This document shows positions 1,739 to 32,930 of a stretch of DNA of 37,718 nucleotides, in pieces. Every line of letters starts with the position of its first letter. Position 1 is the first letter of the stretch. Below the pieces are notes generated by a model that was not told where the DNA came from, searched no databases, and saw only the letters and a list, made by a program, of their open reading frames with translations. The DNA lies in the IMG/VR virus record IMGVR_UViG_2617270964_000009. One strand, written 5' to 3'. The stretch is from a virus (taxonomy: Duplodnaviria > Heunggongvirae > Uroviricota > Caudoviricetes). Position numbers and translations under genes: made by a program.

Positions 1739-3331
1739 TTAGTATCCTATTGCTTCAAAATGCAGTGTCGGTGTTTCGCCGAGATTGGGTGTCGTATACG
1801 CCACAGTGAATCGCGTTCTTGATACGTCAGTGCCAGAATCAGTATCGCGATGCGTTGCCAGTGATTTTCCGGCCATTGTTGACTGGGTCGGATAGCTGTA
1901 ACTCGCTAGTGTTGCCAGCGTTGCTATTTGTGCATTTGGGAATTGTCTGGGGAAATTAACCCTGTAGTAATGGGTGTAGTACGTCACCCCACCAAGCACC
2001 TGCGAGTTGAAGTTACCAACTGGTGTCAGTGTCACAGTGCCAGCCTGTCGAATCATACCATTTGGGAGAATATCCCAGGCAGTTTGTCCGTTTCGCGACA
2101 TACCAAATGCGGACATGTCCGGGAGTTGATTATTACCGGTTCCGACATCCCGTTTTGCCGCTTCTCCCAATTGAAGGTAATTGAGGACTTCTTTTATACT
2201 GCCCATAGCGATAATAGCGCGACCAATAGCTGTAAGGGTTGTCAGCGCTGCGCGGTCTGCTCCGGTAAAATAAGGCAACCGATCTGCTGCAGTGGCAAGT
2301 CCTGCCAGAGCAGTGAGCGTGGCATCTGCCGGTTGTTTTCCGTTTGCCAGATCGTATGCAGCCTTGACCGCTTTCGGTGTGGCGGCCAGTATTTCAGACG
2401 TGCTGTTGATGTCACTGCTCAATTGTACGGTGCCTTTTGCCGTCAGCGAGGCAGCAGGCACTCCCGTTATCTGACTCCACGGGTGAGTGTGGCTGACGGG
2501 CGCCTTACCGGCTGCAAGGTCGTATGCAGCCTTGACCGCCTTCGGCGTGGCAGCCTCAGTTTCTGATTGACTGTCCGTGGCGCTGCTCAGTTGTACGGTG
2601 CCTTTTGCCGTCAGCGAGGCAGCAGGCACTCCCGTTATCTGACTCCACGGGTGAGTGTGGCTGGCAGGCGCCTTGCCGGCTGCAAGGTCGTATGCAGCCT
2701 TGACCGCTTTCGGTGTGGCGGCCAGTATTTCAGACGTGCTGTTGATGTCACTGCTCAATTGTACGGTGCCTTTTGCCGTCAGCGAGGCAGCAGGCACTCC
2801 CGTTATCTGACTCCACGGGTGAGTGTGGCTGACGGGCGCCTTGCCGGCTGCAAGGTCGTATGCAGCCTTGACCGCCTTCGGCGTGGCAGCCTCAGTTTCT
2901 GATTGACTGTCCGTGGCGCTGCTCAGTTGTACGGTGCCTTTTGCCGTCAGCGAGGCAGCAGGCACTCCCGTTATCTGACTCCACGGGTGAGTATGGCTGA
3001 CGGGGGCCTTGCCGGCAGCCAGGTCATATGCAGCCTTGACGGCCTTTGGTGTGGCGGCCAGCGTTTCAGAGGTGCTGTTGGTGGCACTGCTCAGTTGGGT
3101 GAACCCCTTAGCTGTCAGTGTCGCGTCCGGGTGGTTACGGGAACGTACGTGTTCAGCCAGTGACTGTGCGGCTTCCTCCGTTTTTTTCTTCAGCCATTTC
3201 GTCCTGTTTGCCAGTTGCCGGGGGGCTCGATTTGATATCCCGTCTGCACCACCCAGAACCGGATCTGATGTCTCCAGTTGATAGATATTTTCTTCCCACT
3301 TTTCTGTTTCATTCAGGTTTCCCATAATCAA
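1739..3331 (-). CDS. Tail fibre protein (Mu S / P2 H-like), 530 aa
   Basis: N-terminus NETEKWEENIYQLETSDPVLGG...QLANRTKWL is the conserved fibre attachment region; five 56-aa repeats containing SHTHPW follow; C-terminal 150 aa is the variable receptor-binding part. Confidence 0.85.
   Translation of the reverse strand: MIMGNLNETEKWEENIYQLETSDPVLGGADGISNRAPRQLANRTKWLKKKTEEAAQSLAEHVRSRNHPDATLTAKGFTQLSSATNSTSETLAATPKAVKAAYDLAAGKAPVSHTHPWSQITGVPAASLTAKGTVQLSSATDSQSETEAATPKAVKAAYDLAAGKAPVSHTHPWSQITGVPAASLTAKGTVQLSSDINSTSEILAATPKAVKAAYDLAAGKAPASHTHPWSQITGVPAASLTAKGTVQLSSATDSQSETEAATPKAVKAAYDLAAGKAPVSHTHPWSQITGVPAASLTAKGTVQLSSDINSTSEILAATPKAVKAAYDLANGKQPADATLTALAGLATAADRLPYFTGADRAALTTLTAIGRAIIAMGSIKEVLNYLQLGEAAKRDVGTGNNQLPDMSAFGMSRNGQTAWDILPNGMIRQAGTVTLTPVGNFNSQVLGGVTYYTHYYRVNFPRQFPNAQIATLATLASYSYPTQSTMAGKSLATHRDTDSGTDVSRTRFTVAYTTPNLGETPTLHFEAIGY
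2341..3109 (-). repeat. In-frame 168-bp tandem repeats (about 4.5 copies, two alternating variants) inside the tail fibre gene
   Basis: The motif ttgtacggtgccttttgccgtcagcgaggcagcaggcactcccgttatctgactccacggg recurs at 2423, 2591, 2759 and 2925; it encodes the repeat ATPKAVKAAYDLAAGKAPVSHTHPWSQITGVPAASLTAKGTVQLSS. Confidence 0.85.
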
Positions 3332-3906
3332 CTGCTCCCGTGGTTATAACTGCCATCATGGATGGCGGTATTGTTATAGCGAATGGCCACAGACTGATAC
3401 TCCAGGCTGGCCAGATGGCAGCGGGCCGGTGCAAATGCAGCCAGCGTCTGACGCAGCATCGCGGCCTGATCGTTAGTAATGGGCTGTTTCAGAATAACGC
3501 GATAAACTGCCCAGGCGGCTGCATCTCCATGAACAAACAGTCCGTTATAGCTGCGATTGCCGTCGTAACTGAGACGACCTGTGCCTTCAATCAGATCCAC
3601 TTCACCAAAGCCAAAACGGCGGATAACTTCCCGGATTGACCACGGCGTCCCTTTATACCGGTGCAGTTCGATGGCTGCTTTTATAAGCATGCGGCGAACA
3701 TCGTCCGATTCCGCCAGCTCCCAGCCATCGCCAGACAGTGAGAACTGCTCGCCCAGCCATGGCAGCGCGGAACTGTCGACGATATCGACGAGAAAGACCA
3801 TCAGTACGCTCAGGTCGATGTTATCCAGCCGTCCTGCCAGTCTTCCCAGCGTCCTGAGACTGATATCACCCTCAAGCGGTGGCGGGAGTTGTAATGGCTC
3901 AGTCAT
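3328..3906 (-). CDS. Tail protein, Mu gp48 / P2 gpI-like
   Basis: 192-aa ORF placed between the baseplate J-like gene and the fibre gene, ending 2 bp before the fibre start; assignment is by synteny. Confidence 0.55.
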   Translation of the reverse strand: MTEPLQLPPPLEGDISLRTLGRLAGRLDNIDLSVLMVFLVDIVDSSALPWLGEQFSLSGDGWELAESDDVRRMLIKAAIELHRYKGTPWSIREVIRRFGFGEVDLIEGTGRLSYDGNRSYNGLFVHGDAAAWAVYRVILKQPITNDQAAMLRQTLAAFAPARCHLASLEYQSVAIRYNNTAIHDGSYNHGSS

Positions 3907-5002
3907 CAGACACTCCAGTCATGTTAAGAGTGATTGCCGTACAGTTTGCCCATTCGTTTTCTGCCACCACCCGCAGTGCCGGTGTCACCAGTTCAACCTG
4001 GTACACCCCGGAAACGGACAATGCACTGATAATCTGGCTGGGGACAATATCGCGCCCCAGCGTGGCGGCACGTGATGCCACCCAGTTCTGTATGGCGCTG
4101 TTAGCGACATCTTTTACAGACCTGGCATCCTGATCACGATAGATCGTAATCCTGGCTTCAATGGTGTAATCCACCTTCACTGGTGTTTTAGCCCGCACTG
4201 TATCAGTGAGTGGCCTGACTTTCTCATCAGAGCAGAAACTCTCTACCAGCGTGAGAACACCGCCGTCCGGCAGACCGGTACTGAGCAGCGGATACAGATC
4301 TACGGTCCCGGGAACCGGGGAAAGCACAGCAACATCGACAATGTTGGGATGGGCCTGCATGGCATGAAAGCGGTATGCGCCACGGCTTCCGGCATTGGTG
4401 AATGACTCCGGGGCCAGTCTGATACGCTCCCGGAGCCTGTCATCGTCTTCCTGTTCTGAACCGCCGGAACTGGCCGTCAGATTGCTCACCAGCAGGTCGA
4501 CGTTATCAATCTCATCGAGTAACTGACTGACCTGCGCAGGTTGCCAGCCGTTACCAGCGGTACCGGGTTCGGTACAGGTGGACGTGACATTGACCAGCAG
4601 CAATCCGGCCTTCAGTACCACATCTGTATCGGTGGCAAAAATAACGCTGTCGGAAGCGCTGACGCGGGTGCCTGCCGGGATCAGCACATCAATGGCCAGT
4701 GCCTCATCTACGGAGAACTGGAGCGTGGTAGTGGCAGGCTGCGCGGCAAGACGGTATACACCGACCAGTTCACCGAGGTAATCAATCATCGGCTCACGGG
4801 CAAAGGCGACCAGATTCTGCTTTGCTGCCTCCTGTACCGCAACCCTGACCAGCATTTCGCGATAGGCCCACAGATCAATCAGCAGACGTTCTGCCTGTGC
4901 CGGGTACAGCGTTTTGCCGGTATCCACTTCATACTTCGCAATCATTTCTGCCGTGATTTTGTCGGCATCGCGTTCAATAAAATCGGGTTCTGTCAGCGCC
5001 AT
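3899..5002 (-). CDS. Baseplate J-like protein (Mu gp47 / P2 gpJ-like)
   Basis: 367-aa ORF in the conserved baseplate position; size and synteny fit the J family; overlaps its neighbours by a few bp. Confidence 0.75.
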   Translation of the reverse strand: MALTEPDFIERDADKITAEMIAKYEVDTGKTLYPAQAERLLIDLWAYREMLVRVAVQEAAKQNLVAFAREPMIDYLGELVGVYRLAAQPATTTLQFSVDEALAIDVLIPAGTRVSASDSVIFATDTDVVLKAGLLLVNVTSTCTEPGTAGNGWQPAQVSQLLDEIDNVDLLVSNLTASSGGSEQEDDDRLRERIRLAPESFTNAGSRGAYRFHAMQAHPNIVDVAVLSPVPGTVDLYPLLSTGLPDGGVLTLVESFCSDEKVRPLTDTVRAKTPVKVDYTIEARITIYRDQDARSVKDVANSAIQNWVASRAATLGRDIVPSQIISALSVSGVYQVELVTPALRVVAENEWANCTAITLNMTGVSDD

Positions 5003-5340
5003 AGCAGCTCCTGAGTCCGGGTCTGTCCGTCTGAGCCTTTCCAGCTCACCCGGAGCGTAAGATGTTCGCCGTCGACGGCGGGTTTAACTGACATAAGCTG
5101 GCAGCGGGGCTCCCAGCGCCTGATGGCATCGACGGATTCGCGCACCACATGCGGAATGGCCCGGTCTACAGGCCAGTCGATATAAAGATGCAGATTGCTG
5201 CCGAACTCCGGGCGATGCGGGTCGCTGCCGCGGGGAGTCCGCAGGATAATTTGAATCGCCTGCCGGATATCATCCAGCCCCCGGACAATTTCGCCGGGAG
5301 CCTGCAGGGCTGGTTGCCAGAATACTGAGGTCGTTTTCAT
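4993..5340 (-). CDS. Baseplate protein (Mu gp46 / P2 gpW / T4 gp25-like)
   Basis: 115-aa ORF between the V-like and J-like genes, the conserved position for the W/gp25 wedge protein. Confidence 0.65.
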   Translation of the reverse strand: MKTTSVFWQPALQAPGEIVRGLDDIRQAIQIILRTPRGSDPHRPEFGSNLHLYIDWPVDRAIPHVVRESVDAIRRWEPRCQLMSVKPAVDGEHLTLRVSWKGSDGQTRTQELLWR

Positions 5341-5394
5341 GGGGGCAGTATTGCCCCCGTGCGGGAACGCTGATATTAAAGGCGTTTAAGAAGC

Positions 5395-5991
5395 TCAGTG
5401 GGAGTGGTGGCTGGAGTTTTCGCCATCAGACAGCATACTGCCCGTGACATGGGCATTCCCTTTAATCTCGATATTGCCATGGATGGTCGCGGTAACACCT
5501 TTACCACCAGAACCCGCCATGCCTCCTTCGTAAATCAGCTTTCCCCTGACACGCAGATCTCCGGTAAGTTCGGTTTCCGGTGCGTCAATCGTGGCTTTCT
5601 GTGTTTTCAATACCACATCAGCACCACACTCAATGACAATATGCTCAATGCCGCCCCGGATGGTCAGAGTGTGCGTCTTCCGGTTGTAGCTGTACTCTGC
5701 ACCATCAGCAAACCGGGTTCCCCGGATATTTTTGTCACTGAACGGTGGTTTATCGACGTCTGAATACACCGCGCCCAGAATAACACCATCCTCGCCGTTG
5801 GCATCGAGCAGCACCTCAACCTGCTCCCCCACGTCAGGGAGCCAGTAATCTTTGTTATCCTGGGTATTGCGCTGCAGCACGTTAAGCCAGTTTGTGCGCA
5901 GGTTATCGCATTCAGGCAGACGAACGCGGGCCTGAACCCTGTCGGCATCAACGGCACTGACCGTACCGACCTGACGAGTGACACCAGTCAT
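5395..5991 (-). CDS. Baseplate assembly protein V / spike (Mu gp45-like)
   Basis: 198 aa with a glycine-rich C-terminus (GGMAGSGGKGVTATIHGNIEIKGNAHVTG) typical of gpV spike proteins. Confidence 0.7.
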   Translation of the reverse strand: MTGVTRQVGTVSAVDADRVQARVRLPECDNLRTNWLNVLQRNTQDNKDYWLPDVGEQVEVLLDANGEDGVILGAVYSDVDKPPFSDKNIRGTRFADGAEYSYNRKTHTLTIRGGIEHIVIECGADVVLKTQKATIDAPETELTGDLRVRGKLIYEGGMAGSGGKGVTATIHGNIEIKGNAHVTGSMLSDGENSSHHSH

Positions 5992-7142
5992 TTTTTCTTC
6001 TCCTTAATCACCGTCGATGTACTGCCATCCGGGTGATAAACCGTGAGTTTCTGAGTTTTTTGTTTTTTCCCTCTTGTGACTGGCCCCCGTGCCACTTCCA
6101 GCTCTGTGGTGTAGCCGCTGTTACGGTCAAACGCATGGCGGGCAGTGGTTATGAGCCATGGCCCGGATAACTGCCCAAAACCCACCAGTTCAATTTTGTT
6201 GCCTGCTGTCAGTTGAGGTGTTCCCGTCAGCGTCAGGGAGCCGTTCTGCTGGTATTCGTTATGTCTGGCCAGTGCTGAATCCGCTTTAATCCGGGCACTG
6301 TCCGGGTCGCTGACGCGGCTGTTAACTTTAAGTGAGTCAGCGCTGGTAACCTTACCACCTTTGAGCTTTTTGTCGCTTTCACGGGTACCACCATCAGCTT
6401 CGTAGACGATCAGTTTTTTACTGCTGCTTTTCTGGTGTTTTACCTTTGCAGATTTATAGACCCGATTGATGGTGTCACGCAGGGAAAAGCGGGCCACATC
6501 CTGCGGTTTTAACTGCCTGACCGGCTCCTGACTGCGCAGTGTGGCCAGATGAGAAAAAATCAGCTGGTCACTGACCACTTTCACTGCATAACCATACTCG
6601 CTGGCCAGCCGGCGCAGAAAACCCACGTCGGTTTCAGCATACTGGGTCACCCGGTCGATTCTGATGGACTCAATGCTGCCCACCAGTTTCAGTCGGTGCT
6701 TTCTGGCAATCCGCCCCGCAACAGCTGCCAGCGTGGTGTTCTCAAAACCACGACTGGTTTTAGTCCGCAGGGCACTGTTAACCGAGGTGGCCACCCCACG
6801 GATAGAAACAACGGAAGCGGGCGAACTCACTTCGATCTCGTCTATAGAGAACGTACCGCAGGACAGCAGCTTCTCGCCCTGATAGCCCATTTTCAGCGTC
6901 AGCGTGTCACCCTTGCCCGGATACCACTTATCCAGCCAGCGGCCATCGGTGTCGTCCAGCTCCACCTCAATGGTATCGGACTCATTTTTGATGTTATCGC
7001 TCCAGGTCACACGGGTGACATAAGGCGCGATATCAGAGGTGATGTTTTTCTGCAGATACCACAGAGTGAACACCGGTGTCAGCACATCGCTGACGCCGGT
7101 TAACGCTGATGTGACTTGCGCAGTGCTGTTTATCTCAGCCAT
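5988..7142 (-). CDS. Tail protein, Mu gp44(P) / P2 gpD-like (baseplate hub)
   Basis: 384 aa, close to the Mu P and P2 D sizes; sits between the tape-measure and spike genes. Confidence 0.7.
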   Translation of the reverse strand: MAEINSTAQVTSALTGVSDVLTPVFTLWYLQKNITSDIAPYVTRVTWSDNIKNESDTIEVELDDTDGRWLDKWYPGKGDTLTLKMGYQGEKLLSCGTFSIDEIEVSSPASVVSIRGVATSVNSALRTKTSRGFENTTLAAVAGRIARKHRLKLVGSIESIRIDRVTQYAETDVGFLRRLASEYGYAVKVVSDQLIFSHLATLRSQEPVRQLKPQDVARFSLRDTINRVYKSAKVKHQKSSSKKLIVYEADGGTRESDKKLKGGKVTSADSLKVNSRVSDPDSARIKADSALARHNEYQQNGSLTLTGTPQLTAGNKIELVGFGQLSGPWLITTARHAFDRNSGYTTELEVARGPVTRGKKQKTQKLTVYHPDGSTSTVIKEKKK

Positions 7143-7345
7143 GGGGCAATATCCTCTTCTGTACGGGCTTCTTCAGCCTCAATCACCGGGATCAGTAACA
7201 ACAGCCCGGAGGGCAGCACCGGCGTGATGGCCACGTGCGGATTGGCGGCAATAATCCGGGGATAGCCCAGCGGGTCACCGTAGTACTGCCATGCCAGCGA
7301 ATCCCAGCGCTCTCCGTCACGGGTAACATGTTCAAGAAACATCAC
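7130..7345 (-). CDS. Tail protein X-like (LysM-like small protein)
   Basis: 71 aa; the ...DSLAWQYYGDPLGYPRIIAANPHV...LPSGLLLLIP pattern resembles the P2 gpX family. Confidence 0.45.
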   Translation of the reverse strand: MMFLEHVTRDGERWDSLAWQYYGDPLGYPRIIAANPHVAITPVLPSGLLLLIPVIEAEEARTEEDIAPWLR

Positions 7346-8226
7346 ACACTCCTCGTCAGTATTCTGGCGGCCATTGCACTTAATCCCGGAGACATGCGGT
7401 TGAATGCTGTGCCGGCGGCGTTAAGCTGCCCGGAAACGGTATCCAGAGCACCTGCAATATTTCTTTTGTCCACACCACTCAGCGCAGACTGTGCCTGCTG
7501 TACATACGTGGCTGCTTCGCTGGCTGTTCTGGCCAGACTGATGGCATCGGGCATGGATTCAGAGAGTGCGTTAAACGCCGGAACACTTTTCCCCAGAGCC
7601 CCGGAGATATTACCCAGTCCGCTCATCAGCCCCGGCACACGGGTCAGTGCGACAACGGGGTTATCCTTCATTTTCTGTGTCACCCGAACGGCGCTGATAG
7701 TGGTTTGGAGTACAGACTGCGCCTGTTTCGCATAGTTGACGCCGTTGCGGATGAACTGCGCCCCCCCTGAAGGTGAAGGAATGGCACCGGAGACCGCCCC
7801 GACACCCGGGAGCTTCGTGCGTATTGCCGGTGGTTGCAGAGGATTTTTCGGATCACCGGTGTATTCCCGGAGAGACACGGTGGCACTGACAGCCAGCACG
7901 TTACCGGTGCTGTCTGTCTGCTCGCTGGTTGCGGTCACATCGGTAATCACGAACCAGCCACGATAGTCACCGTTGCCGAAGACCAGCGCCAGTGCCTGAT
8001 GGGCTTTCATGGTTGTTCGCAGTCTCGCCAGCTCCACATCGGGTACACAATAATGCTGATGGAAGACCAGACTTATCTGGATTTCGTCCAGCCTGTCGCC
8101 GACGAACTGCAGGCCAGGCTTACCCCCGATGCGGGCATGCTCCGCATAATCGACGCCGAACGTGGCCTCGAAGCCGTCCCAGTAGGTAATCAGCTCAAAC
8201 TCAATATCACCCAGTACGGCAAACAT
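7342..8226 (-). CDS. Tail/DNA-circulation-like protein (Mu N / P2 U-position)
   Basis: 294-aa ORF directly downstream of the tape-measure gene with a 1-bp overlap; assigned by synteny only. Confidence 0.5.
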   Translation of the reverse strand: MFAVLGDIEFELITYWDGFEATFGVDYAEHARIGGKPGLQFVGDRLDEIQISLVFHQHYCVPDVELARLRTTMKAHQALALVFGNGDYRGWFVITDVTATSEQTDSTGNVLAVSATVSLREYTGDPKNPLQPPAIRTKLPGVGAVSGAIPSPSGGAQFIRNGVNYAKQAQSVLQTTISAVRVTQKMKDNPVVALTRVPGLMSGLGNISGALGKSVPAFNALSESMPDAISLARTASEAATYVQQAQSALSGVDKRNIAGALDTVSGQLNAAGTAFNRMSPGLSAMAARILTRSV

Positions 8227-11200
8227 CAGCGGTACTCCTTACGTTGTTTCTGAGCCAGCAGACGCTCCAGCATTTTTTCCAGCTCATGCAGACTCATATT
8301 CAGGGCACCAGTAAGTCCTGCAGGCGCTGTGGTTTCCCTGCCATTGAGGAAAAACTGAGGATTAAAGCTGACCTGGATACCACCAGACGTTCCACCGCCG
8401 GTTGCAGCTGCACCACGGCCTGAATATCCGGCAGCCAGGATTTCAGGCGAGGGGATACGGGGAACATCCGGTGTCATCTCATTTGCCAGACGTTGCCCTG
8501 GTAAAATCGATGCCCGGGTGGAGAGCGGAATAGCGGGCATGGAAGACAAACTATTGATTACGGCTCCGATCGCATTTTTAGCAGACGACATAAACCCATT
8601 GATATCGGGCAACGGCATACTGAAGCGAACACCTGAAGTGTTATCCCGTATTTCTGGCCCCTGAATGCTCACGGGCATTCTGGGGAGCAGTTCACTGGCC
8701 ATTCGCTGCCCGGCCAGAGCTGCAAGCGGAGTGGTCCGCTGCAGGCCAATGGCGACCCCCTGCGCGATATTGTCACCAAAGCCCATAAACACGCGGCTCG
8801 GCGAATGAATGCCCAGCTTTTCGCTGAACCAGCCACTGATGCTGTCACCCATTCCGGTTACACTGGATTTGAGCGACTCCCATTTGTTTTTGATACCGTT
8901 AATCAGACCATCGACAAGATGTCCACCGAAGTCGGTAAACTTTGCCGGCAGATCAACACCAAGATATTTCAGCGCAGCTGCAAAGGCTTTATAGAGCAGA
9001 CCTGCCGGCGACCAGTTAATCAGCAGCTTACCAGTTCCCGCGATACCGCCGTTAAAGGCTTCCTGAATGTCAGCCCAGCACTGTTTAAACCAGCTACTGA
9101 TGCTGTCACCCATTCCGGTTACACTGGATTTGAGCGACCCCCATTTGTTTTTGATACCGTTAATCAGACCGTCGATAAGATGGCCACCGAAGTCGGTGAA
9201 CTTTGCCGGCAGAGCAACGCCGAAATATTTCAGCGCAGCCGCAAAGGCTTTATAGAGCAGGCCTGCCGGCGACCAGTTAATCAGCAACTTACCGGTTCCC
9301 GCGATACCGCCGTTAAAGGCTTCCTGAATGTCAGCCCAGCACTGTTTAAACGGGCTACTGATGCTGTCACCCATTCCGGTTACACTGGATTTGAGCGACC
9401 CCCATTTGTTTTTGATACCGTTAATCAGACCGTCGACAAGATGGCCACCGAAGTCGGTGAACTTTGCCGGCAGAGCAACGCCGAAATATTTCAGCGCAGC
9501 CGCAAAGGCTTTATAGAGCAGGCCTGCCGGCGACCAGTTAATTAGCAACTTACCAGTTCCCACAATGCCGCCGTTAAAGGCTTCCTGAATGTCAGCCCAG
9601 CGCTGTTTAAACCAGCTACTGACTGCCCCCCAGTTGCGGTAGATAAGGTAAGCTGCTGCCGCGACAGCTGTGATAACGAGACCGATGGGATTCATCATCA
9701 GCGCACGTCCAATCCAGAGAACAGCACGTCCGGCGAGCATAATTCCGCGAACCAGCCCCCCGGAGAGCACGCCACTCAGTGTTCTGGCTCCTCTGGCGAC
9801 GGCGCTAAATCCGGTCACCAGCCAGCGGAGCTTACCGCCTTGCCCCAGTGCGAGCAACAGACGAAGCCAGTTGGTCCGAAGTAAAACAGCATTTTTCCAG
9901 ACACTTACAAAGGGGGAAATAAGAAGATTCAGCCCCAGTTTGAGACCAACAGTCGCTATCTTAATCGCAAGGAGCGCACTGATGAGCTTAAAAGCCCCAC
10001 TGACAAATTGCGGGTGAGTCGCTACCCAGTGTTTTGTCCCCTGAATGAGTGGGAGCAGTTCCTGAGTCAGAGAAATAAAAGATGGAGCTAATTGATCGCC
10101 CAGCGTAATTGCCAGATCGCGACTGCTGACCATAAGTGCTTTAGTGGCTTCAAGGGGAGATTTCAGCCGCTGATCATAAGCACTGGCAAGCAAATCGTTA
10201 TCCGCAGCCCTGAGAGCACCGGCGCGGATCTCGCGATATCTGTCCATGTTGGCCAGCATCGGGCGGATAAATGCCATGACCTGCATATCCGCGAACATAT
10301 CACCCAGACCAAAGTTTTTCGCCAGAGCCTGAAGTGCCTCATCTCTTGCCGTATCATTCTTTATTTTCATGGCGGATTTGAAGCCGGCCAGCGCTTCGGG
10401 GCTTTTGGCATTGAGGTAACGTTCTATAACACTCAACATCCCTTCAATCGGAGAGATCCCCGCAGCTTTATAACTCGCAATAGATCCCTGCAAATCAATA
10501 CCCAGATCAGCAAACTGTTTCTGAGTATCGCGGGCAAAAATTTTGGTAAGAAAGTTTTTAAAATTATTGGCTGCTTCGTCGGTGGAACCTGCACCGATTT
10601 TTGCTATCTGGAGACTGGCCCCGATTTCAGCAACAGCCTCTTTTCCACTGGCAATACCCGCCATCATTGGGGCCAGGGACTGCATCCACTTGACCTGATC
10701 CGGGATTTCAAATGACCCCTGGTCACCGGCATAAGCCATAATATTCTGAACGGCACCAAAATCTCTGGCCGCACCTTTCAGGGAGTTTTGCCAGACTGCG
10801 GCCACTTTTGCCCAGTCCTGAGCAGACGTGCGTGTTGCCGTTGCCGCGCGGGCAATATCCGGCATCAGAAAACCGATATCTGACACATTATCAATATTGT
10901 CGCTGATGAGTGAACCCACCGCCTCCTGCAGCTCATCCTGATACTGATTGTATTTAAGCGCCCAGCCTTTTATCTGTCCGGCAAGTGCATCCCGCGTTTT
11001 ATTGTCATATTTTGCGGTGATCGACATATCAATCATTTTGTCCTGAAAAGACATGGACTGCTGAACGGCAGGGGAAACCGTATGATAAACAGTCTGTGCC
11101 ATGCCATACGCTTCAATCCCCTGACCATACAGCGCCATGCGGTTAGCTTTCAGCGCATCACTGGTAGCGGATGCCGCTGACAGACGGCGCTGCTGGCGCT

Positions 11201-11438
11201 CAATTTGCTCCATGGTGCGGCTTACCCGCAGCAGCTCGCTGTTGAGATGCTGCATCCGGGAAGAACCCAGTTGACCATAACGTTCTGTTGCACGGGTTAA
11301 AGCGTTCTGACGTTCCTGCAGGCGGCGTGAGGTATCGCTCAGGGAATCAAGCGCACGGCGGGTACCGCTCATTGCAGAACGGAATGTGCTGCCAATCATC
11401 CCGCCGATAACAACGCCGACTGAAAACTGTCCCGACAT
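8226..11438 (-). CDS. Tail tape measure protein (1070 aa)
   Basis: Longest ORF in the tail module; has hydrophobic stretches and an internal triplicated 87-aa unit; lies downstream of the tail chaperone and tube genes. Confidence 0.85.
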   Translation of the reverse strand: MSGQFSVGVVIGGMIGSTFRSAMSGTRRALDSLSDTSRRLQERQNALTRATERYGQLGSSRMQHLNSELLRVSRTMEQIERQQRRLSAASATSDALKANRMALYGQGIEAYGMAQTVYHTVSPAVQQSMSFQDKMIDMSITAKYDNKTRDALAGQIKGWALKYNQYQDELQEAVGSLISDNIDNVSDIGFLMPDIARAATATRTSAQDWAKVAAVWQNSLKGAARDFGAVQNIMAYAGDQGSFEIPDQVKWMQSLAPMMAGIASGKEAVAEIGASLQIAKIGAGSTDEAANNFKNFLTKIFARDTQKQFADLGIDLQGSIASYKAAGISPIEGMLSVIERYLNAKSPEALAGFKSAMKIKNDTARDEALQALAKNFGLGDMFADMQVMAFIRPMLANMDRYREIRAGALRAADNDLLASAYDQRLKSPLEATKALMVSSRDLAITLGDQLAPSFISLTQELLPLIQGTKHWVATHPQFVSGAFKLISALLAIKIATVGLKLGLNLLISPFVSVWKNAVLLRTNWLRLLLALGQGGKLRWLVTGFSAVARGARTLSGVLSGGLVRGIMLAGRAVLWIGRALMMNPIGLVITAVAAAAYLIYRNWGAVSSWFKQRWADIQEAFNGGIVGTGKLLINWSPAGLLYKAFAAALKYFGVALPAKFTDFGGHLVDGLINGIKNKWGSLKSSVTGMGDSISSPFKQCWADIQEAFNGGIAGTGKLLINWSPAGLLYKAFAAALKYFGVALPAKFTDFGGHLIDGLINGIKNKWGSLKSSVTGMGDSISSWFKQCWADIQEAFNGGIAGTGKLLINWSPAGLLYKAFAAALKYLGVDLPAKFTDFGGHLVDGLINGIKNKWESLKSSVTGMGDSISGWFSEKLGIHSPSRVFMGFGDNIAQGVAIGLQRTTPLAALAGQRMASELLPRMPVSIQGPEIRDNTSGVRFSMPLPDINGFMSSAKNAIGAVINSLSSMPAIPLSTRASILPGQRLANEMTPDVPRIPSPEILAAGYSGRGAAATGGGTSGGIQVSFNPQFFLNGRETTAPAGLTGALNMSLHELEKMLERLLAQKQRKEYR
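8800..9625 (-). repeat. In-frame 261-bp tandem repeats (3 copies plus a partial) inside the tape measure gene
   Basis: gatgctgtcaccc recurs at 8838, 9099 and 9360 (period exactly 261 bp); the encoded 87-aa unit FKQCWADIQEAFNGGIAGTGKLLINWSPAGLLYKAFAAALKYFGVALPAKFTDFGGHL(V/I)DGLINGIKNKWGSLKSSVTGMGDSIS is repeated three times. Confidence 0.9.
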
Positions 11439-11513: not shown

Positions 11514-11771
11514 TTATGATTTGTCGCCGTACTCGCTTTTTATTTGCTCTTCAGCCTGCTCCAGCCACATCTCCAGATCGTCAGTATCGAGGGCATCAAT
11601 CTCCCCCGGCTGAAACCGGAACCATCTCGCCAGCAGCCCCTGCGCCTGCGTCAGCGCCTTTGTCGCTCTCACCCATCCCCGTGATGAGCTGAAATCGTTT
11701 CTGTAACTGCAGGTAATCAGCCAGATCCATATTGTCGAGATCTTCCGGGAGAAGACCAGTACTGCGGGCAA
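11514..11771 (-). CDS. Tail assembly chaperone, downstream frame (+1 relative to 11596..11931): candidate frameshift product or frameshifted gene
   Basis: Only the C-terminal ~48 aa (KALTQAQGLLARWFRFQPGEIDALDTDDLEMWLEQAEEQIKSEYGDKS) look protein-like; the frame opens right after a TGA at 11772-11774. Confidence 0.4.
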   Translation of the reverse strand: MPAVLVFSRKISTIWIWLITCSYRNDFSSSRGWVRATKALTQAQGLLARWFRFQPGEIDALDTDDLEMWLEQAEEQIKSEYGDKS

Positions 11772-11931
11772 TCAGCGGTTCGTCCCAGTCTGCCGGGTTT
11801 TTGCTGATTTTGCGCACCTGCTTCAGGTCTTTTACCGTCAGGCGTTTCAGTTCAACCTGCTCAATTCTGGTGCCTGCAGCAGTGGTGAAGGGATAAGACA
11901 ATTTAAAAGTATCGGATGGGGTCTGTGACAT
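11596..11931 (-). CDS. Tail assembly chaperone, upstream frame (111 aa as read)
   Basis: Lies between the tube and tape-measure genes, the conserved chaperone position; N-terminal ~80 aa look protein-like, the last ~30 aa (GADAGAGAAGEMVPVSAGGD) look like out-of-frame readthrough. Confidence 0.5.
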   Translation of the reverse strand: MSQTPSDTFKLSYPFTTAAGTRIEQVELKRLTVKDLKQVRKISKNPADWDEPLIARSTGLLPEDLDNMDLADYLQLQKRFQLITGMGESDKGADAGAGAAGEMVPVSAGGD

Positions 11932-12312: not shown

Positions 12313-12834
12313 TCAGCCCCCGATATTGATACGGTAGTCAGTCAGTTGATCAACACCGCCGACCCGGAAGATGTTGGCCAGATAGTCCAGTTGCAGCAGC
12401 TCTTCACCATCCAGTACCTGTCTGATATACGTGCAGGTGAAGCTACTGGAGAACTCGGCGTTCTCGTGCTGTTTGAACGTCCCCAGCGGGTTCTTCTTGA
12501 ACATAATCGTCAGGAAGGTGACCAGCGGGATTTCGTCAATCAGCCCCTGCGAGCTGTAGCGCTGGACGCTGGAACGACACTGCAGTGCCAGCGACCTGTA
12601 CGGGTTCGCGGCAGACAGCATCGCATCGCGGTAAAAGCTGTTCCATTTGATTTCGCCTTCCAGTTTGTCAAAACCAGCCGGGAGTTCCACCTTACCCACC
12701 ATCCCCAGCGCCTTGTGTTCCTGCATAATCATGGAGACATCGGGGAGTTTAACTTCCTCAGCCCGTCCCAGCAGGTTAGTACCATCCAGATAGATGTTGG
12801 CATTCGTGATGCGGTTTATCTCAATCTTTGACAT
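12313..12834 (-). CDS. Tail tube protein (Mu M / P2 FII-like)
   Basis: 173-aa ORF immediately downstream of the sheath gene; size and position are typical of contractile-tail tube proteins. Confidence 0.8.
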   Translation of the reverse strand: MSKIEINRITNANIYLDGTNLLGRAEEVKLPDVSMIMQEHKALGMVGKVELPAGFDKLEGEIKWNSFYRDAMLSAANPYRSLALQCRSSVQRYSSQGLIDEIPLVTFLTIMFKKNPLGTFKQHENAEFSSSFTCTYIRQVLDGEELLQLDYLANIFRVGGVDQLTDYRINIGG

Positions 12835-14261
12835 CAGTTGCCCCCTTTCAGGGTTAACAGGTATTCCGAGGTGATCTCAGTCTCAAACGTCAGTCGCTCC
12901 AGCGGCGGTGGTGGCGTATATTTGTAGCTCAGCAACAGGTGCCCGGCGGCCAGCTCCGTCTCCGGATTGCGGGCCGGATCAAACCAGCAACGGAAGCCCA
13001 GTACCGCACCATCACCAGTCATTTTGCGACCGTAGGCGTTGACCGACTCCGTCAGTGCATCAATCAGCGCCTGAGTAATCGGCATGTCGATGTACTGCTG
13101 GCTGAAATAACGAATGGACTCGTTGATCACATCACCGGTGCGGCGAACGTTCTCAAAGTTACGCATATGGGTGACCGTTGGCCATGCTGCCGTCCGGTTA
13201 CCCCACAGACGAAGGCCGCTGCCGTAACTGCTGAATACCGTGGTGATCCCCTGTTCGTTAAGCAGGTTTACCTCACTCTGCGGGTCATCAATCATCGCGG
13301 ACAGCTGGCGCTCCACGCCGGTGATCCCCAGAATCTCCTGATTGGAGGATGACCACCAGTAGCCCTTGTCCAGATCGACTCTGGCACGCAGACCTGCTGC
13401 ACGCTGGCTGAGCGGCTCCAGACGCTCTGTGTTTGTCACCGGGTCATATACCTTCACATGCGGATAGCACAGACGGACGCGGTCGGAGCTGGTATTGAAG
13501 TTGATGGTGCCTTCCGGGCCACGACCTGCCAGAGCCTGTGCAAAGGTGGTACCGACAGGCGCATCAATGTAGGTTACCGCGCCCAGCTTCTCTGCCATGG
13601 CGATAAGCTCAACTGCGACACTCTTCTGGGTGCAGAACACCGGCGCAATCAGAATTTTGGCGAAATAGCCGTACAGGTTGAAGCTGTCGTTAAGCAGCTT
13701 CATGCCGGTTCGGTTTCCGGCGCTGTTCACCCCGCCGATGATGTCCGCCGCAGTCACCTTCGACGGGTCCGCGTACTCATAGCTCACCTTCACGCTGCCA
13801 CCGGCCTCAATAGCCTTGCCCAGGTTCGTGAGCACCCCCGCCTGCGCATCAACACGGTAGTCCGTGTTCGCCGTGTGGGTGGTGCTGCCTTCACTGTTTT
13901 TCACCACCACATTAGCGACAACCGGATGCGCCAGTCTGGCCTGCCCTGTCGATTTGTCAAAGGTAACCACCTCATCCTCGATCGCCGTTTTATGTTTCGC
14001 CGGGTCGAGGACGTTAATGACCAGAACGGTGCCTGCACCATGGTCATAAATCGCATCCAGCGCCTGCGGAATGGTAAAGCCGGTGAACTGGCTGCCAAAT
14101 GCCGCTGCGTCTTTCTCAGACAGGCACTGTACCAGCGTATTGACATCCCCCATCGGGGCGGTACCAATCAGGCCAATAACGGCAGATTTCACCGTTTTAA
14201 CCGGGCGGGCTCCGTTTTCCACCTCAATGGTTTCGGGACCATGCAGATAGTTAGCTGCCAT
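12834..14261 (-). CDS. Tail sheath protein (Mu L / P2 FI-like)
   Basis: 475 aa; conserved sheath size and position upstream of the tube gene. Confidence 0.85.
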   Translation of the reverse strand: MAANYLHGPETIEVENGARPVKTVKSAVIGLIGTAPMGDVNTLVQCLSEKDAAAFGSQFTGFTIPQALDAIYDHGAGTVLVINVLDPAKHKTAIEDEVVTFDKSTGQARLAHPVVANVVVKNSEGSTTHTANTDYRVDAQAGVLTNLGKAIEAGGSVKVSYEYADPSKVTAADIIGGVNSAGNRTGMKLLNDSFNLYGYFAKILIAPVFCTQKSVAVELIAMAEKLGAVTYIDAPVGTTFAQALAGRGPEGTINFNTSSDRVRLCYPHVKVYDPVTNTERLEPLSQRAAGLRARVDLDKGYWWSSSNQEILGITGVERQLSAMIDDPQSEVNLLNEQGITTVFSSYGSGLRLWGNRTAAWPTVTHMRNFENVRRTGDVINESIRYFSQQYIDMPITQALIDALTESVNAYGRKMTGDGAVLGFRCWFDPARNPETELAAGHLLLSYKYTPPPPLERLTFETEITSEYLLTLKGGN

Positions 14262-31150: not shown

Positions 31151-32920
31151 ATGAATGCTGCCCTGACTGAACGACTGGTTTATGTCGCCCGCGCGGCACG
31201 TGACGCGGGGCATGGTAAACGCGGTGCAATATACGACGCTGCCTGTGCTGAACTTGGCATGTCCCGCGCCACTCTGCTGCGCAGGCTGAAGGAGGTCTCT
31301 GTGACTGATAAACGCAAAAAACGCGCCGATGCCGGGCGCAGCGCCCTGACCCGCGACGAAGCCGCGCTGATATCTGCCACACTGCGTGAGGCCACCCGCA
31401 AGAACGGTAAGCGTCTCTATTCCATCGCGGATGCAGTGGAAACCCTGCGGGCTAACGGCTTTATCTCCGCAGGCAGAACAGATGAAACCACCGGTGAGTT
31501 TTTCCCGTTGTCCGAAGATGCCATCAGCCGTGCCCTGCGTAACTATGGCCTGCACCCGGAACAACTGGATGCCCCTGCGCCGCATACCGAAGTGGCCAGT
31601 CTGCATCCCAATCATGTCTGGCAGATTGATGCCTCGCTCTGCACGCTTTACTACCTGAGCAATGGACACAAAGGGCTGCAGGTGATGGACAGCGCGAAAT
31701 TCTACAAGAACAAGCCCGCTAACCTTGCCCGTATCGCCAGTGACCGCGTGTGGAGTTATGAGATTACCGACCATGCCAGCGGCTGGATTTACGTTGAGTA
31801 TGTGACGGGTGCGGAATCCGGTGAGAACCTGTGTTCTGTGCTTATCAACGCCATGCAGGAGCGTGGCGGCGCAGACGTGCTGCACGGCGTGCCAAAAATA
31901 CTCTATCTCGACCCCGGCTCGGCAAACACCGCGGGTATGACGAAAAACATGTGCCGCTCACTGGGCATTGACCTGATAGCGCACAAGCCGCATAACGCCC
32001 GCGCCACCGGACAGGTGGAAAAGGCGCGAGACATTATCGAACGCAAGCTGGAGCCGGGTCTGAAGTTCCGGCCGGTTCACAGTCTGGAAGAACTCAACGC
32101 GCTGGCCGCGAAATGGCGCAGCCACTTTAACGCCACGGCTGTTCACAGCCGCCACGGTAAAACCCGCACGGATATCTGGCTGAAGATTACTACTGAGCAG
32201 CTGAAAAAAGCGCCTTCCGTTGAGGTATGTCGTGAACTGGCTGTGGCGGCACCAGAACTCCGCAAAGTCACGCCAAAACTTCGTGTCTCGTTCCGGGGCA
32301 CTGAATTTGACGTATCAACGGTACCGGGCGTACTGGTCGGTGAAAAACTGATGATTACCCGTAACCCGTGGCGCAGCGATGTGGCACAGGTGGTTCTGAC
32401 CGGTGAGGACGGCCACGAGACGTTCTTCCTGGTCGAAGAGGTCAGAAAGAACGAGTTTGGCTTTGCTGAAGGCGCGGCGGTATTTGGCGAAAGTTACAAA
32501 GCCCTGCCGGAAACACCGGCGCAGACGGCGGCAAAAGAAACTGAAGCGCTGGTCACCGGTACAGACAACGCCACAGATGCAGCTGTCGCACGCAAGGCGA
32601 AGGCGCTGCCGTTCGGCGGGCGGCTTGACCCGTATAAACATATTGATGACGCCACACTTCCGGCCTATATGCCGAAGCGCGGTCAGGCCTCTGACGTACG
32701 CGGGCCGCGCACTGAACAACGTCCCATGACTCATGTGGAGGCCGCGAAAGCCCTGCGCGATAAGTTCAGCGCCGACGGCCTTACCTGGACGCCGGAACAT
32801 TACCGCCAGTTAACGGCACAGTACCCGGACGGCGTACCGGAAGCCGCACTGGATGAAGTCATGGCCACGCTGACCACACCGGCCCGCAGCAGTGTTATCA
32901 GCATTGTTAACGGCAACTGA
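31151..32920 (+). CDS. DDE transposase (Mu A / TnsB / rve-superfamily)
   Basis: Candidate DDE triad: D in VWQIDAS, D in ILYLDPGSAN, E about 35 aa later in ATGQVEKARD; followed by an AAA+ ATPase gene as in MuA-MuB; GGAGG Shine-Dalgarno. Confidence 0.75.
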   Translation: MNAALTERLVYVARAARDAGHGKRGAIYDAACAELGMSRATLLRRLKEVSVTDKRKKRADAGRSALTRDEAALISATLREATRKNGKRLYSIADAVETLRANGFISAGRTDETTGEFFPLSEDAISRALRNYGLHPEQLDAPAPHTEVASLHPNHVWQIDASLCTLYYLSNGHKGLQVMDSAKFYKNKPANLARIASDRVWSYEITDHASGWIYVEYVTGAESGENLCSVLINAMQERGGADVLHGVPKILYLDPGSANTAGMTKNMCRSLGIDLIAHKPHNARATGQVEKARDIIERKLEPGLKFRPVHSLEELNALAAKWRSHFNATAVHSRHGKTRTDIWLKITTEQLKKAPSVEVCRELAVAAPELRKVTPKLRVSFRGTEFDVSTVPGVLVGEKLMITRNPWRSDVAQVVLTGEDGHETFFLVEEVRKNEFGFAEGAAVFGESYKALPETPAQTAAKETEALVTGTDNATDAAVARKAKALPFGGRLDPYKHIDDATLPAYMPKRGQASDVRGPRTEQRPMTHVEAAKALRDKFSADGLTWTPEHYRQLTAQYPDGVPEAALDEVMATLTTPARSSVISIVNGN

Positions 32921-32930
32921 GGAGGGAAAC

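What the first reader, a model, noticed from the sequence alone, without database searches (positions are those of the whole stretch)
8800..9625. Recent in-frame triplication (261 bp = 87 aa) inside the tape measure gene
Three near-identical tandem copies plus a partial fourth sit within the tape measure ORF. Tape-measure length sets tail length, so each copy should lengthen the tail by a predictable increment; the high identity suggests a recent expansion or ongoing copy-number variation.
Basis: partly seen in the sequence, partly recalled or inferred. Interest (0 to 1): 0.45.

Follow-up and report, generated by a model that had tools for sequence, protein, structure and literature searches.

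The report
Variable-copy repeat in phage tape measure
A prophage tail-length "ruler" gene carries three in-frame copies of an 87-amino-acid module, and close relatives in other E. coli genomes carry one, two or three copies made by repeated unequal recombination; this probably gives tails of different lengths, but it is a known kind of variation in such genes.

Summary
Window 8827-9622 holds 3.05 tandem copies of a 261-nt (87-aa) unit, 94-97% identical. They lie in frame in the minus-strand ORF 8226-11438 (1070 aa), which is a tape measure protein by Pfam, PHROG and gene order. The "partial fourth copy" is only a 13-nt boundary repeat.

Single-copy (896 aa; more diverged 821 aa), two-copy (983 aa) and three-copy (1070 aa) alleles coexist in closely related E. 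coli prophages. In a systematic sample of 636 finished genomes with a hit, about 63% had two copies, 23% three and 2% one. No four-copy allele was seen.

Marker patterns in finished genomes show five array architectures. These need at least four independent unequal crossovers, two expansions and two contractions. The window's middle unit is a hybrid: its 5' part matches unit 3 and its 3' part matches unit 1.

The first duplication is not recent. dS between units 1 and 3 is 0.21, against 0.015-0.076 for the backbone among lineages, with purifying selection (dN/dS 0.12-0.18).

The same module is amplified independently, with other periods, in distant tape measure proteins.

The effect on tail length (about 13 nm per unit) is inferred, not shown. 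This is a new member of a known kind, of modest interest.

The parts
8226..11438 (-). Tail tape measure protein gene, 1070 aa, intact ORF
   Evidence: ORF list and translation. Pfam PF10145 PhageMin_Tail 2e-20 at aa 159-340. phrog_28 'tail length tape measure protein' 4e-136. Annotated as tape measure in hundreds of E. coli genomes.
9360..9620 (-). Repeat unit 1 (aa 607-693), type 'a-a'
   Evidence: It carries the a-type markers in both halves.
9099..9359 (-). Repeat unit 2 (aa 694-780), hybrid 'b-a': 5' part like unit 3, 3' part like unit 1. This is the signature of unequal crossing-over. It carries a Trp-to-Pro change (TGG to CCG) at the junction that none of the relatives aligned here has.
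   Evidence: The marker pattern reads bbbb-aaaaaaaaa, with one exception (position 72 of the unit is unit-1-like).
8838..9098 (-). Repeat unit 3 (aa 781-867), type 'b-b'. In its 3' half it resembles the single unit of the outgroups.
8825..8837 (-). Together with its partner at the 5' edge of unit 1 (window 9610-9622) it forms a 13-nt direct repeat, TCAGTGGCTGGTT. This repeat flanks the unit in single-copy alleles and is the likely seed of the first duplication.
   Evidence: Boundary sequences of 8 alleles.
9639..10010 (-). Hydrophobic region (aa 477-513 and 572-600) just N-terminal to the array
   Evidence: Kyte-Doolittle 19-residue scan at 1.5 or above.
8499..8711 (-). Second length polymorphism: a 71-aa segment (aa 910-980) flanked by GQR(M/L)A motifs, absent from the 821-aa relatives
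   Evidence: Protein alignment; coordinates.
11514..11931 (-). Tail assembly chaperone pair (gpE-like ORF 11596-11931 plus overlapping ORF 11514-11771 in another frame). By analogy these are partners of the tape measure during assembly.
   Evidence: PF10109 Phage_TAC_7 3.5e-22. phrog_166 and phrog_8286. RefSeq annotates a separate 'GpE family phage tail protein' at the homologous site.
12313..14261 (-). Tail tube (12313-12834) and contractile sheath (12834-14261) genes. Their polymer length would follow the tape measure.
   Evidence: PF04985 2.9e-53; PF04984 and PF17482. The tube protein, and in most loci the sheath protein, is identical between 1-, 2- and 3-copy prophages (same WP accessions).
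7342..8226 (-). gpU-like tail protein directly downstream of the tape measure gene
   Evidence: PF06995 1.1e-38.

Best explanation
The array is a copy-number-variable length module of the tape measure protein of a BcepMu-like (transposable, P2-type contractile tail) E. coli prophage.

An ancestral single 87-aa unit lies just after the hydrophobic region. It is flanked by a 13-nt direct repeat and was duplicated once, well before this prophage clade diversified. Since then the tandem copies have acted as substrates for unequal homologous recombination, which repeatedly adds or removes exactly one 261-nt unit.

The window's allele [a-a][b-a][b-b] is the product of a misaligned crossover between unit 2 and unit 1 of a two-copy [a-a][b-b] array.

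The tape measure protein acts as a ruler for tube and sheath polymerisation. Each unit should therefore lengthen the tail by roughly 87 x 0.15 nm, about 13 nm or three tube/sheath rings. That gives a natural series of predicted tail lengths for the 821-, 896-, 983- and 1070-aa alleles.

Shown here: the repeat, its reading frame, the identity of the gene, the copy-number polymorphism, the recombinant architectures, the relative ages and purifying selection.

Inferred: which recombination machinery acts, the effect on tail length, and any selective value.
For: - Repeat and frame.
- Gene identity and synteny.
- Copy number in finished E. coli genomes: 636 of 5426 genomes have a hit. In an evenly spaced sample of 60 ranked records the spans were 3213 nt in 14, 2952 nt in 38, 2691 nt in 1 and 2454 nt (the diverged 821-aa type) in 3. 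All alleles translated were intact ORFs except ABU 83972.
- Protein database: lengths of 896, 983 and 1070 aa carry 1, 2 and 3 unit motifs. No four-copy protein appears among the top-scoring 120.
- Architectures in finished genomes: 1 copy [a/b]; 2 copies [a-a][b-b] and [a|b-a][b-b]; 3 copies [a-a][b-a][b-b] and [a-a][a-a][b-b]. Each is derivable from another by one crossover at a different position, which needs at least 2 expansions and 2 contractions.
- Close relatives with different copy numbers: flanks of 8.4 kb differ by only 25-37 substitutions between alleles.
- Recurrence: a neighbour-joining tree of 62 repeat-free backbones needs at least 13 copy-number changes. Three groups with identical 809-aa backbones hold both 2- and 3-copy proteins.
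- Age and selection: dS U1-U3 is 0.21 against backbone dS of 0.015-0.076; dN/dS is 0.12-0.18.
- Seed of the first duplication: a 13-nt direct repeat flanks the single unit.
- Same module in distant proteins: 564 cluster representatives match the unit. Of 91 that are 700 aa or longer, 57 have one match, 24 two, 8 three and 2 four. Tandem periods of 76, 110 and 42 aa occur, and copies within a protein are closer to each other than to the E. coli unit.
- Ruler principle: deletions and duplications in the tape measure protein change tail length in proportion in lambda and TP901-1 (PMC3271669 background; PMC5099701).
Against: - No tail length was measured, and no electron microscopy was found for any of these alleles. 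A search for phage PhiKM found no usable paper.
- The unit lies in the C-terminal half, next to the hydrophobic region. Not every part of a tape measure protein need count toward length: TP901-1 extrapolates to about 127 residues that do not contribute (PMC5099701).
- Structure prediction gave no usable model (pLDDT 39), so the assumed extended or helical conformation is not supported here.
- Some prophage copies are decaying, so part of the variation may be neutral. Examples are the chaperone pseudogene in EcPF7 and the frameshifted tape measure gene in ABU 83972.
- The cases with identical backbones but different copy numbers come mainly from draft or metagenome assemblies, where repeat collapse is possible. 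Phage PhiKM has a 100-N gap exactly here.
- The genome counts are inflated by clonal ST131 sampling.
Confidence: 0.8

Rival explanations
1. Assembly artefact: the source is a draft assembly, and the assembler expanded or mis-joined a shorter repeat into three copies.
For: The window is identical over 7.2 kb to a contig of the draft assembly GCA_000601135.1. The repeat does break assemblies: phage PhiKM has a 100-N sequencing gap inside it.
Against: The three units are distinguishable, with 9-16 differences each. The same [a-a][b-a][b-b] architecture occurs in finished chromosomes (SCU-101, 18044, EC5654). 57 finished genomes align over the whole 3213 nt at 99% or more. The identical protein is on 25 contigs.
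Confidence: 0.03
2. Ancient, fixed domain repeat: three copies are the stable, conserved state of this protein family, and the high identity is kept by gene conversion rather than by turnover in copy number.
For: The founding duplication is old relative to the clade (dS 0.21). Many distant homologues carry 2-4 diverged copies of the same module. Some arrays show patchy marker exchange that suggests conversion (the 'aab' patch in unit 3 of L008, L012 and L014; two near-identical units in P0002).
Against: Close relatives have 1, 2 or 3 units, and two copies is the commonest state. Hybrid units map to discrete crossovers. The outgroups (821-aa type) have one unit.
Confidence: 0.07
3. Real copy-number variation with no phenotypic meaning. 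Either the prophages are largely cryptic, or this segment does not count in the ruler (for example it serves membrane insertion or chaperone binding). Copy number would then drift neutrally.
For: Pseudogenes occur in the tail module of some copies. The unit adjoins the hydrophobic, putative membrane-active region. Nothing here links copy number to host type.
Against: dN/dS of 0.12-0.18 between units shows that both copies were kept functional. Every allele translated but one is an intact ORF. Related phages have been deposited as phage isolates (PhiKM, Phi06_2974 B). In TP901-1, deletions in both the repeat region and the hydrophobic region changed tail length (PMC5099701).
Confidence: 0.15

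Closest known systems
Tape measure proteins with variable numbers of tandem repeat units (Belcaid, Bergeron and Poisson 2011, PMC3271669; TP901-1 TMP, Mahony et al. 2016, PMC5099701)
   Same: In-frame tandem repeats inside the tail-length ruler. The number of units differs between related phages through duplication and loss. Those authors proposed that repeats make tail length easy to change.
   Different: Those repeats are short (11 or 18 aa) and are marked by regularly spaced Trp/Phe. Here the unit is 87 aa with irregular aromatic spacing. The copies are nearly identical at the DNA level. The turnover can be reconstructed event by event within one bacterial species.
Lambda gpH and T4 gp29 protein rulers (Katsura and Hendrix 1984 and Katsura 1987, cited in PMC3271669 and PMC9022992; the T4 gp29 length experiments are recalled from my own knowledge)
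   Same: Engineered in-frame deletions and duplications change tail length in proportion. T4 shows that the principle holds for contractile tails.
   Different: Those were laboratory mutants. Here the duplications are natural alleles that segregate in prophage populations. No length data exist for them.
Tape measure proteins of BcepMu-like / P2-type tail modules (nearest phage records: Escherichia phage PhiKM, genus Bcepmuvirus; Klebsiella phage KP12 record)
   Same: Same gene order: sheath, tube, chaperones E/E', tape measure, U, X, D. The tape measure gene is 96% (PhiKM) and about 86% (KP12) identical at nt level.
   Different: KP12 and the E. coli 821-aa type have one unit and lack the 71-aa C-terminal segment. 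The copy number of PhiKM is unknown because of its sequencing gap.

Membership tests
Phage tail tape measure protein (TMP) | Sequence match to curated TMP families | tested here: met
   PF10145 2e-20, above the gathering score. phrog_28 4e-136 and many other TMP PHROGs.
Phage tail tape measure protein (TMP) | Position in the tail module: after the tail assembly chaperone pair, before the baseplate hub genes, downstream of tube and sheath | tested here: met
   Order is sheath, tube, DUF7739, Phage_TAC_7, TMP, gpU, gpX, gpD.
Phage tail tape measure protein (TMP) | Long, largely helical protein with internal hydrophobic segments | tested here: inconclusive
   It is 1070 aa, and only the DUF7739 ORF separates the chaperone pair from the tube gene. 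Hydrophobic stretches lie at aa 477-513 and 572-600. The AlphaFold model is all-helical but has pLDDT 39, so it is not reliable.
Phage tail tape measure protein (TMP) | Protein length sets tail length | not testable with these tools
   This needs electron microscopy of virions from 1-, 2- and 3-unit alleles.
TMP tandem-repeat units of Belcaid et al. / TP901-1 type | Period of 11 (or 18) aa with Trp/Phe at fixed positions | tested here: not met
   The period is 87 aa. Aromatic residues are at unit positions 3, 4, 8, 15, 29, 36, 39, 45, 46, 54, 57 and 73. Only two 11-residue spacings occur (4-15 and 46-57).
TMP tandem-repeat units of Belcaid et al. / TP901-1 type | Variable number of units among related phages through duplication and loss | tested here: met
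   1, 2 or 3 units in close relatives, with recombinant architectures.
Assembly artefact (collapsed or expanded repeat) | The array is not reproduced in independent finished assemblies | tested here: not met
   The same three-unit architecture is found in finished chromosomes, and 57 full-length matches reach 99% or more.
BcepMu-like transposable phage (Bcepmuvirus) | DDE transposase plus AAA+ transposition ATPase together with a P2-type contractile tail module; nearest classified phage in that genus | tested here: met
   rve domain in ORF 31151-32920 and AAA_22 in ORF 32892-34097. PhiKM, 96% identical over the TMP gene, is filed under Bcepmuvirus. Transposition ends and whole-genome comparison were not examined.

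The most novel reading that the evidence does not exclude
The 87-aa module may be an evolvable 'length cassette' of a large tape measure superfamily. It has been amplified independently at the same position with different unit boundaries in many lineages. In E. coli prophages, including those of ST131, it flips between 1, 2 and 3 copies fast enough to create a standing tail-length polymorphism. Selection might maintain that polymorphism, for example by matching tail reach to the thickness of capsule or O-antigen, in step with the variable-length tail fibre shaft encoded 6 kb away.
Probability: 0.15. Interest if true: 0.55.

Novelty: new member of a known kind. Interest (0 to 1): 0.3.

Why it matters
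This gives a ready-made natural allelic series for the ruler protein: 821, 896, 983 and 1070 aa. The tube protein, and in most loci the sheath protein, is identical across the series, and it occurs in cultivable, sequenced E. coli strains. That allows a direct test of the ruler model, and of nanometres per residue, for a P2-type contractile tail. It also allows a test of whether tail length affects adsorption or host range.

There is a practical point as well. The repeat breaks short-read assemblies (a gap in phage PhiKM). It also misleads automatic annotation: intact three-unit genes are called as two 'partial' pseudogenes. Copy number at this locus should therefore be trusted only when it comes from long reads.

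Tried and rejected
1. Structure prediction of aa 547-913 from the single sequence gave pLDDT 38.9 and pTM 0.19. I did not use it for fold search or as evidence of conformation.

2. The plus-strand ORF 8805-9545 (246 aa), antisense to the array, gives Pfam matches such as IpaB_EvcA at 5.7e-8. That score is the sum of three weak 40-residue matches, one per repeat copy. The tape measure frame is the one supported by homology and by dN/dS. I rejected this ORF as a by-product of repeating a stop-free stretch.

3. Pfam finds no domain in the unit itself or in the C-terminal 203 aa.

4. A regular 11/18-aa aromatic periodicity inside the unit was not found.

5. I looked for alleles with four or more copies. 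None appeared among 120 finished-genome rows or among the top 120 protein clusters. One 1084-aa protein (P0001) turned out to be a different 101-aa duplication in another register.

6. Literature searches for PhiKM or for E. coli Bcepmuvirus tail measurements found nothing usable.

7. A search of the second half of the window against the phage collection failed on query length and was not repeated.

Full report
**Observation**

Tandem Repeats Finder reports one array at window 8827-9622 with period 261 nt, 3.0 copies, 95% matches, no indels and score 1445. The gapless repeat finder places three copies in register at 8827, 9088 and 9349.

The array lies wholly inside the minus-strand ORF 8226-11438, which is 1070 aa with no internal stop. 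Since 261 = 3 x 87, the frame is kept. In protein terms the units are aa 607-693, 694-780 and 781-867. At nucleotide level U1/U2 are 96.6% identical, U1/U3 93.9% and U2/U3 94.3%.

Beyond it similarity is lost: 192 of 261 positions differ.

**What the gene is**

- The ORF matches Pfam PF10145 (PhageMin_Tail, 2e-20) and PHROG 28, "tail length tape measure protein" (4e-136).
- It follows a sheath gene (PF04984/PF17482), a tube gene (PF04985) and a gpE-type chaperone (PF10109). It precedes gpU, gpX and gpD homologues. This is a P2-type contractile tail module.
- Elsewhere the window encodes an rve-family transposase and an AAA+ ATPase.
- The closest phage record, Escherichia phage PhiKM (96% over this gene), is classified in Bcepmuvirus.
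- Over 7.2 kb the window is identical to a contig of E. coli draft assembly GCA_000601135.1.
- The units sit directly after two hydrophobic stretches (aa 477-513 and 572-600) and 203 aa before the C-terminus.

**Is it an assembly artefact?**

No.
- The three units differ from each other at 9-16 positions.
- The identical protein is recorded on 25 contigs.
- 57 finished E. coli genomes align to all 3213 nt in one ungapped piece at 99% or more.
- The same unit architecture is present in finished chromosomes.

The repeat does cause technical trouble, however. PhiKM has a 100-N gap in it, annotated "coding region disrupted by sequencing gap". RefSeq annotation also splits the intact three-unit genes of strains SCU-101 and 18044 into two "partial" pseudogenes.

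**Homologues and copy number**

636 of 5426 finished E. coli genomes carry a related gene. In a sample of 60 records taken at even steps down the ranking, the match spans were:

| Span (nt) | Units | Records |
|---|---|---|
| 3213 | 3 | 14 |
| 2952 | 2 | 38 |
| 2691 | 1 | 1 |
| 2454 (more diverged 821-aa type) | 1 | 3 |

Clonal ST131 sampling inflates the two-unit class.

Translation of 16 loci confirms intact ORFs of 896, 983 and 1070 aa with 1, 2 and 3 units. The one exception is the frameshifted ABU 83972 copy.

The 821-aa relatives (E. coli GABEEC10 and the Klebsiella phage KP12 record) have one unit. They also lack a 71-aa segment further downstream, at window aa 910-980, flanked by GQR(M/L)A.

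In the 5.8-billion-protein database the top 120 clusters show the same three length classes and no four-unit protein.

**How the copies arose**

Diagnostic positions define an "a" and a "b" state for each half of a unit. The a state is that of the first unit and the b state that of the last unit of the two-unit allele L005. Finished genomes show five architectures:

| Units | Architecture | Examples |
|---|---|---|
| 1 | [a/b], crossover between unit positions 98 and 119 | EcPF7 |
| 2 | [a-a][b-b] | Ecol_745, KE50, O78 strain 3 |
| 2 | [a\|b-a][b-b] | the ST131 strain MB1159, AR_0058, 097H6, DFS.1 |
| 3 | [a-a][b-a][b-b] | this window, SCU-101, 18044, EC5654 |
| 3 | [a-a][a-a][b-b] | S22EC, EC21GDE043, AHB7 |

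Each follows from another by a single misaligned homologous crossover.
- The window's hybrid middle unit is what pairing of unit 2 with unit 1 of an [a-a][b-b] array would produce.
- The [a-a][a-a][b-b] form needs a crossover nearer the 5' edge of the unit.
- The ST131-type two-unit form is a three-unit array contracted by a crossover between positions 18 and 53.
- The EcPF7 single unit is a contraction, and it still carries a derived marker of its lineage's first unit.

This requires at least two expansions and two contractions.

Prophages with different copy numbers differ by only 25-37 substitutions in 8.4 kb of flanks. On a neighbour-joining tree of 62 repeat-free protein backbones, parsimony needs at least 13 copy-number changes. 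Three groups with identical 809-aa backbones contain both two- and three-unit proteins. Those identical-backbone cases are mostly from draft assemblies, where repeat collapse cannot be excluded.

In single-unit alleles the unit is flanked by a perfect 13-nt direct repeat, TCAGTGGCTGGTT. This is a plausible seed for the founding duplication by slippage or illegitimate recombination (inference).

**Age and selection**

Synonymous divergence between units 1 and 3 is 0.21. The rest of the gene differs between the sampled prophage lineages by dS 0.015-0.076. The outgroups, at 86-89% nt identity, have one unit.

The first duplication therefore predates the diversification of this E. coli clade but postdates the split from the 821-aa type. 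Only the step to three units is recent. dN/dS between units is 0.12-0.18, so both copies have been kept as working protein.

**Wider family**

An exhaustive search with one unit against 1.84 billion cluster representatives found 564 proteins at E of 0.001 or better. Of the 91 listed proteins that are 700 aa or longer, 57 match once, 24 twice, 8 three times and 2 four times.

The tandem periods in these proteins differ: 76-77 aa, 110 aa, and 41-43 aa half-units. Copies within one protein are 46-76% identical to each other but only 33-49% identical to the E. coli unit.

The same region of this tape measure family has therefore been amplified independently, with different boundaries, many times. 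One E. coli protein (P0001, 1084 aa) carries yet another duplication, of 101 aa in a different register.

**Mechanism and consequence**

What is shown is a recombination-driven, in-frame copy-number polymorphism in the ruler gene. What is inferred is its effect.

In lambda and in TP901-1, in-frame deletions and duplications of the tape measure protein change tail length in proportion (PMC3271669; PMC5099701). The TP901-1 authors proposed that repeats ease such changes (PMC5099701). From my own knowledge the usual figure is about 0.15 nm per residue, and the tube ring rise is about 4 nm. T4 has 138 gp19 subunits, that is 23 rings (PMC3004832). On those figures, 87 aa predicts about 13 nm, or about three extra tube and sheath rings, per unit.

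The tube protein, and in most loci the sheath protein, has the same RefSeq accession in 1-, 2- and 3-unit prophages. Any length difference would therefore be attributable to the tape measure protein.

No measurement exists in the material I could search. The AlphaFold model was too poor to support an extended helical conformation. Some copies are decaying, so part of the variation may be neutral.

**Comparison with what is known, and verdict**

Variable numbers of tandem units in tape measure proteins, and their link to tail length, are established (PMC3271669, PMC5099701). This case differs in three ways.
- The unit is 87 aa, not the 11/18-aa aromatic-periodic type (that feature was tested and not met).
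- The copies are near-identical at DNA level.
- The history of gains and losses can be read directly from hybrid units within a single host species.

I file it as a new member of a known kind. It is wrong on two details: the founding duplication is not recent, and there is no real fourth copy. Interest is modest. Its main value is as a natural allelic series for testing the ruler model in a contractile tail, and as a warning about assembly and annotation at this locus.

Noticed in passing
window 2345-3097 (minus-strand ORF 1739-3331): The tail fibre gene (Phage_fiber_2 repeats, gp53-like C-terminus) has its own tandem array, 168 nt x 4.5 or 336 nt x 2.2 at 86-95% identity. In finished E. coli genomes the homologous stretch spans 1171, 987, 835, 787, 713 or 458 nt. 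The fibre shaft therefore also varies in repeat number (for example by 336 nt in the commonest hit type in the sample). The receptor-binding C-terminal 420 nt is exchanged in most relatives.
   Followed up: partly
window 8499-8711 (TMP aa 910-980): A second length polymorphism in the same gene. A 71-aa segment bounded by GQRMA.../GQRLA... motifs is absent from the 821-aa relatives (E. coli GABEEC10, Klebsiella phage KP12 record).
   Followed up: partly
L008 (SCU-101) and L019 (strain 18044), locus 3001-6213; L001 (PhiKM) 2353-2452: RefSeq annotates intact three-unit tape measure ORFs as two 'incomplete, partial in the middle of a contig' pseudogenes, leaving a gap over the repeat. The PhiKM phage genome has a 100-N sequencing gap at the same place. 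The repeat defeats both annotation and short-read assembly.
   Followed up: yes
protein P0001 (1084 aa, one contig of 22.8 kb): A related E. coli tape measure protein carries a different tandem duplication of 101 aa. It spans the second hydrophobic segment and the first 28 residues of the unit (junction GKLL|REGGKLRW). The region is therefore prone to duplication in more than one register. It rests on a single contig, so it is unverified.
   Followed up: partly
window 8805-9545, plus strand: A 246-aa antisense ORF runs through the array. Its Pfam matches (IpaB_EvcA 5.7e-8, Mu_Gam-like 1e-6) are sums of three weak per-copy matches. It is most likely an artefact of repeating a stop-free stretch.
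   Followed up: partly
window 9351-9353 (unit 2, third codon): In the window's middle unit the Trp at the unit junction (SSWF) is replaced by Pro through two adjacent base changes (TGG to CCG). None of the relatives aligned here has this change.
   Followed up: no
window 11514-11931, minus strand: A gpE-like chaperone ORF (11596-11931) overlaps a second ORF in another frame (11514-11771, phrog_8286). This is the layout expected for the programmed-frameshift E/E+E' chaperone pair. The candidate slippery heptamers found (TTTAAAT at 11907, AAACCCG at 11800) lie upstream of the overlap, so the shift site was not identified.
   Followed up: partly
L013 (E. coli ABU 83972) locus 3001-6215; L004 (EcPF7) locus 5849-6564: Some prophage copies are decaying. 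The three-unit tape measure gene of ABU 83972 is 3215 nt and frameshifted. EcPF7 has an internal stop in the chaperone gene and a frameshift in the neighbouring small ORF.
   Followed up: no
window 31151-34097, plus strand: An rve-family transposase (589 aa) and an AAA+ ATPase (401 aa) lie side by side. This fits a Mu/BcepMu-type transposable prophage joined to a P2-type tail module. The ends of the element were not examined.
   Followed up: no
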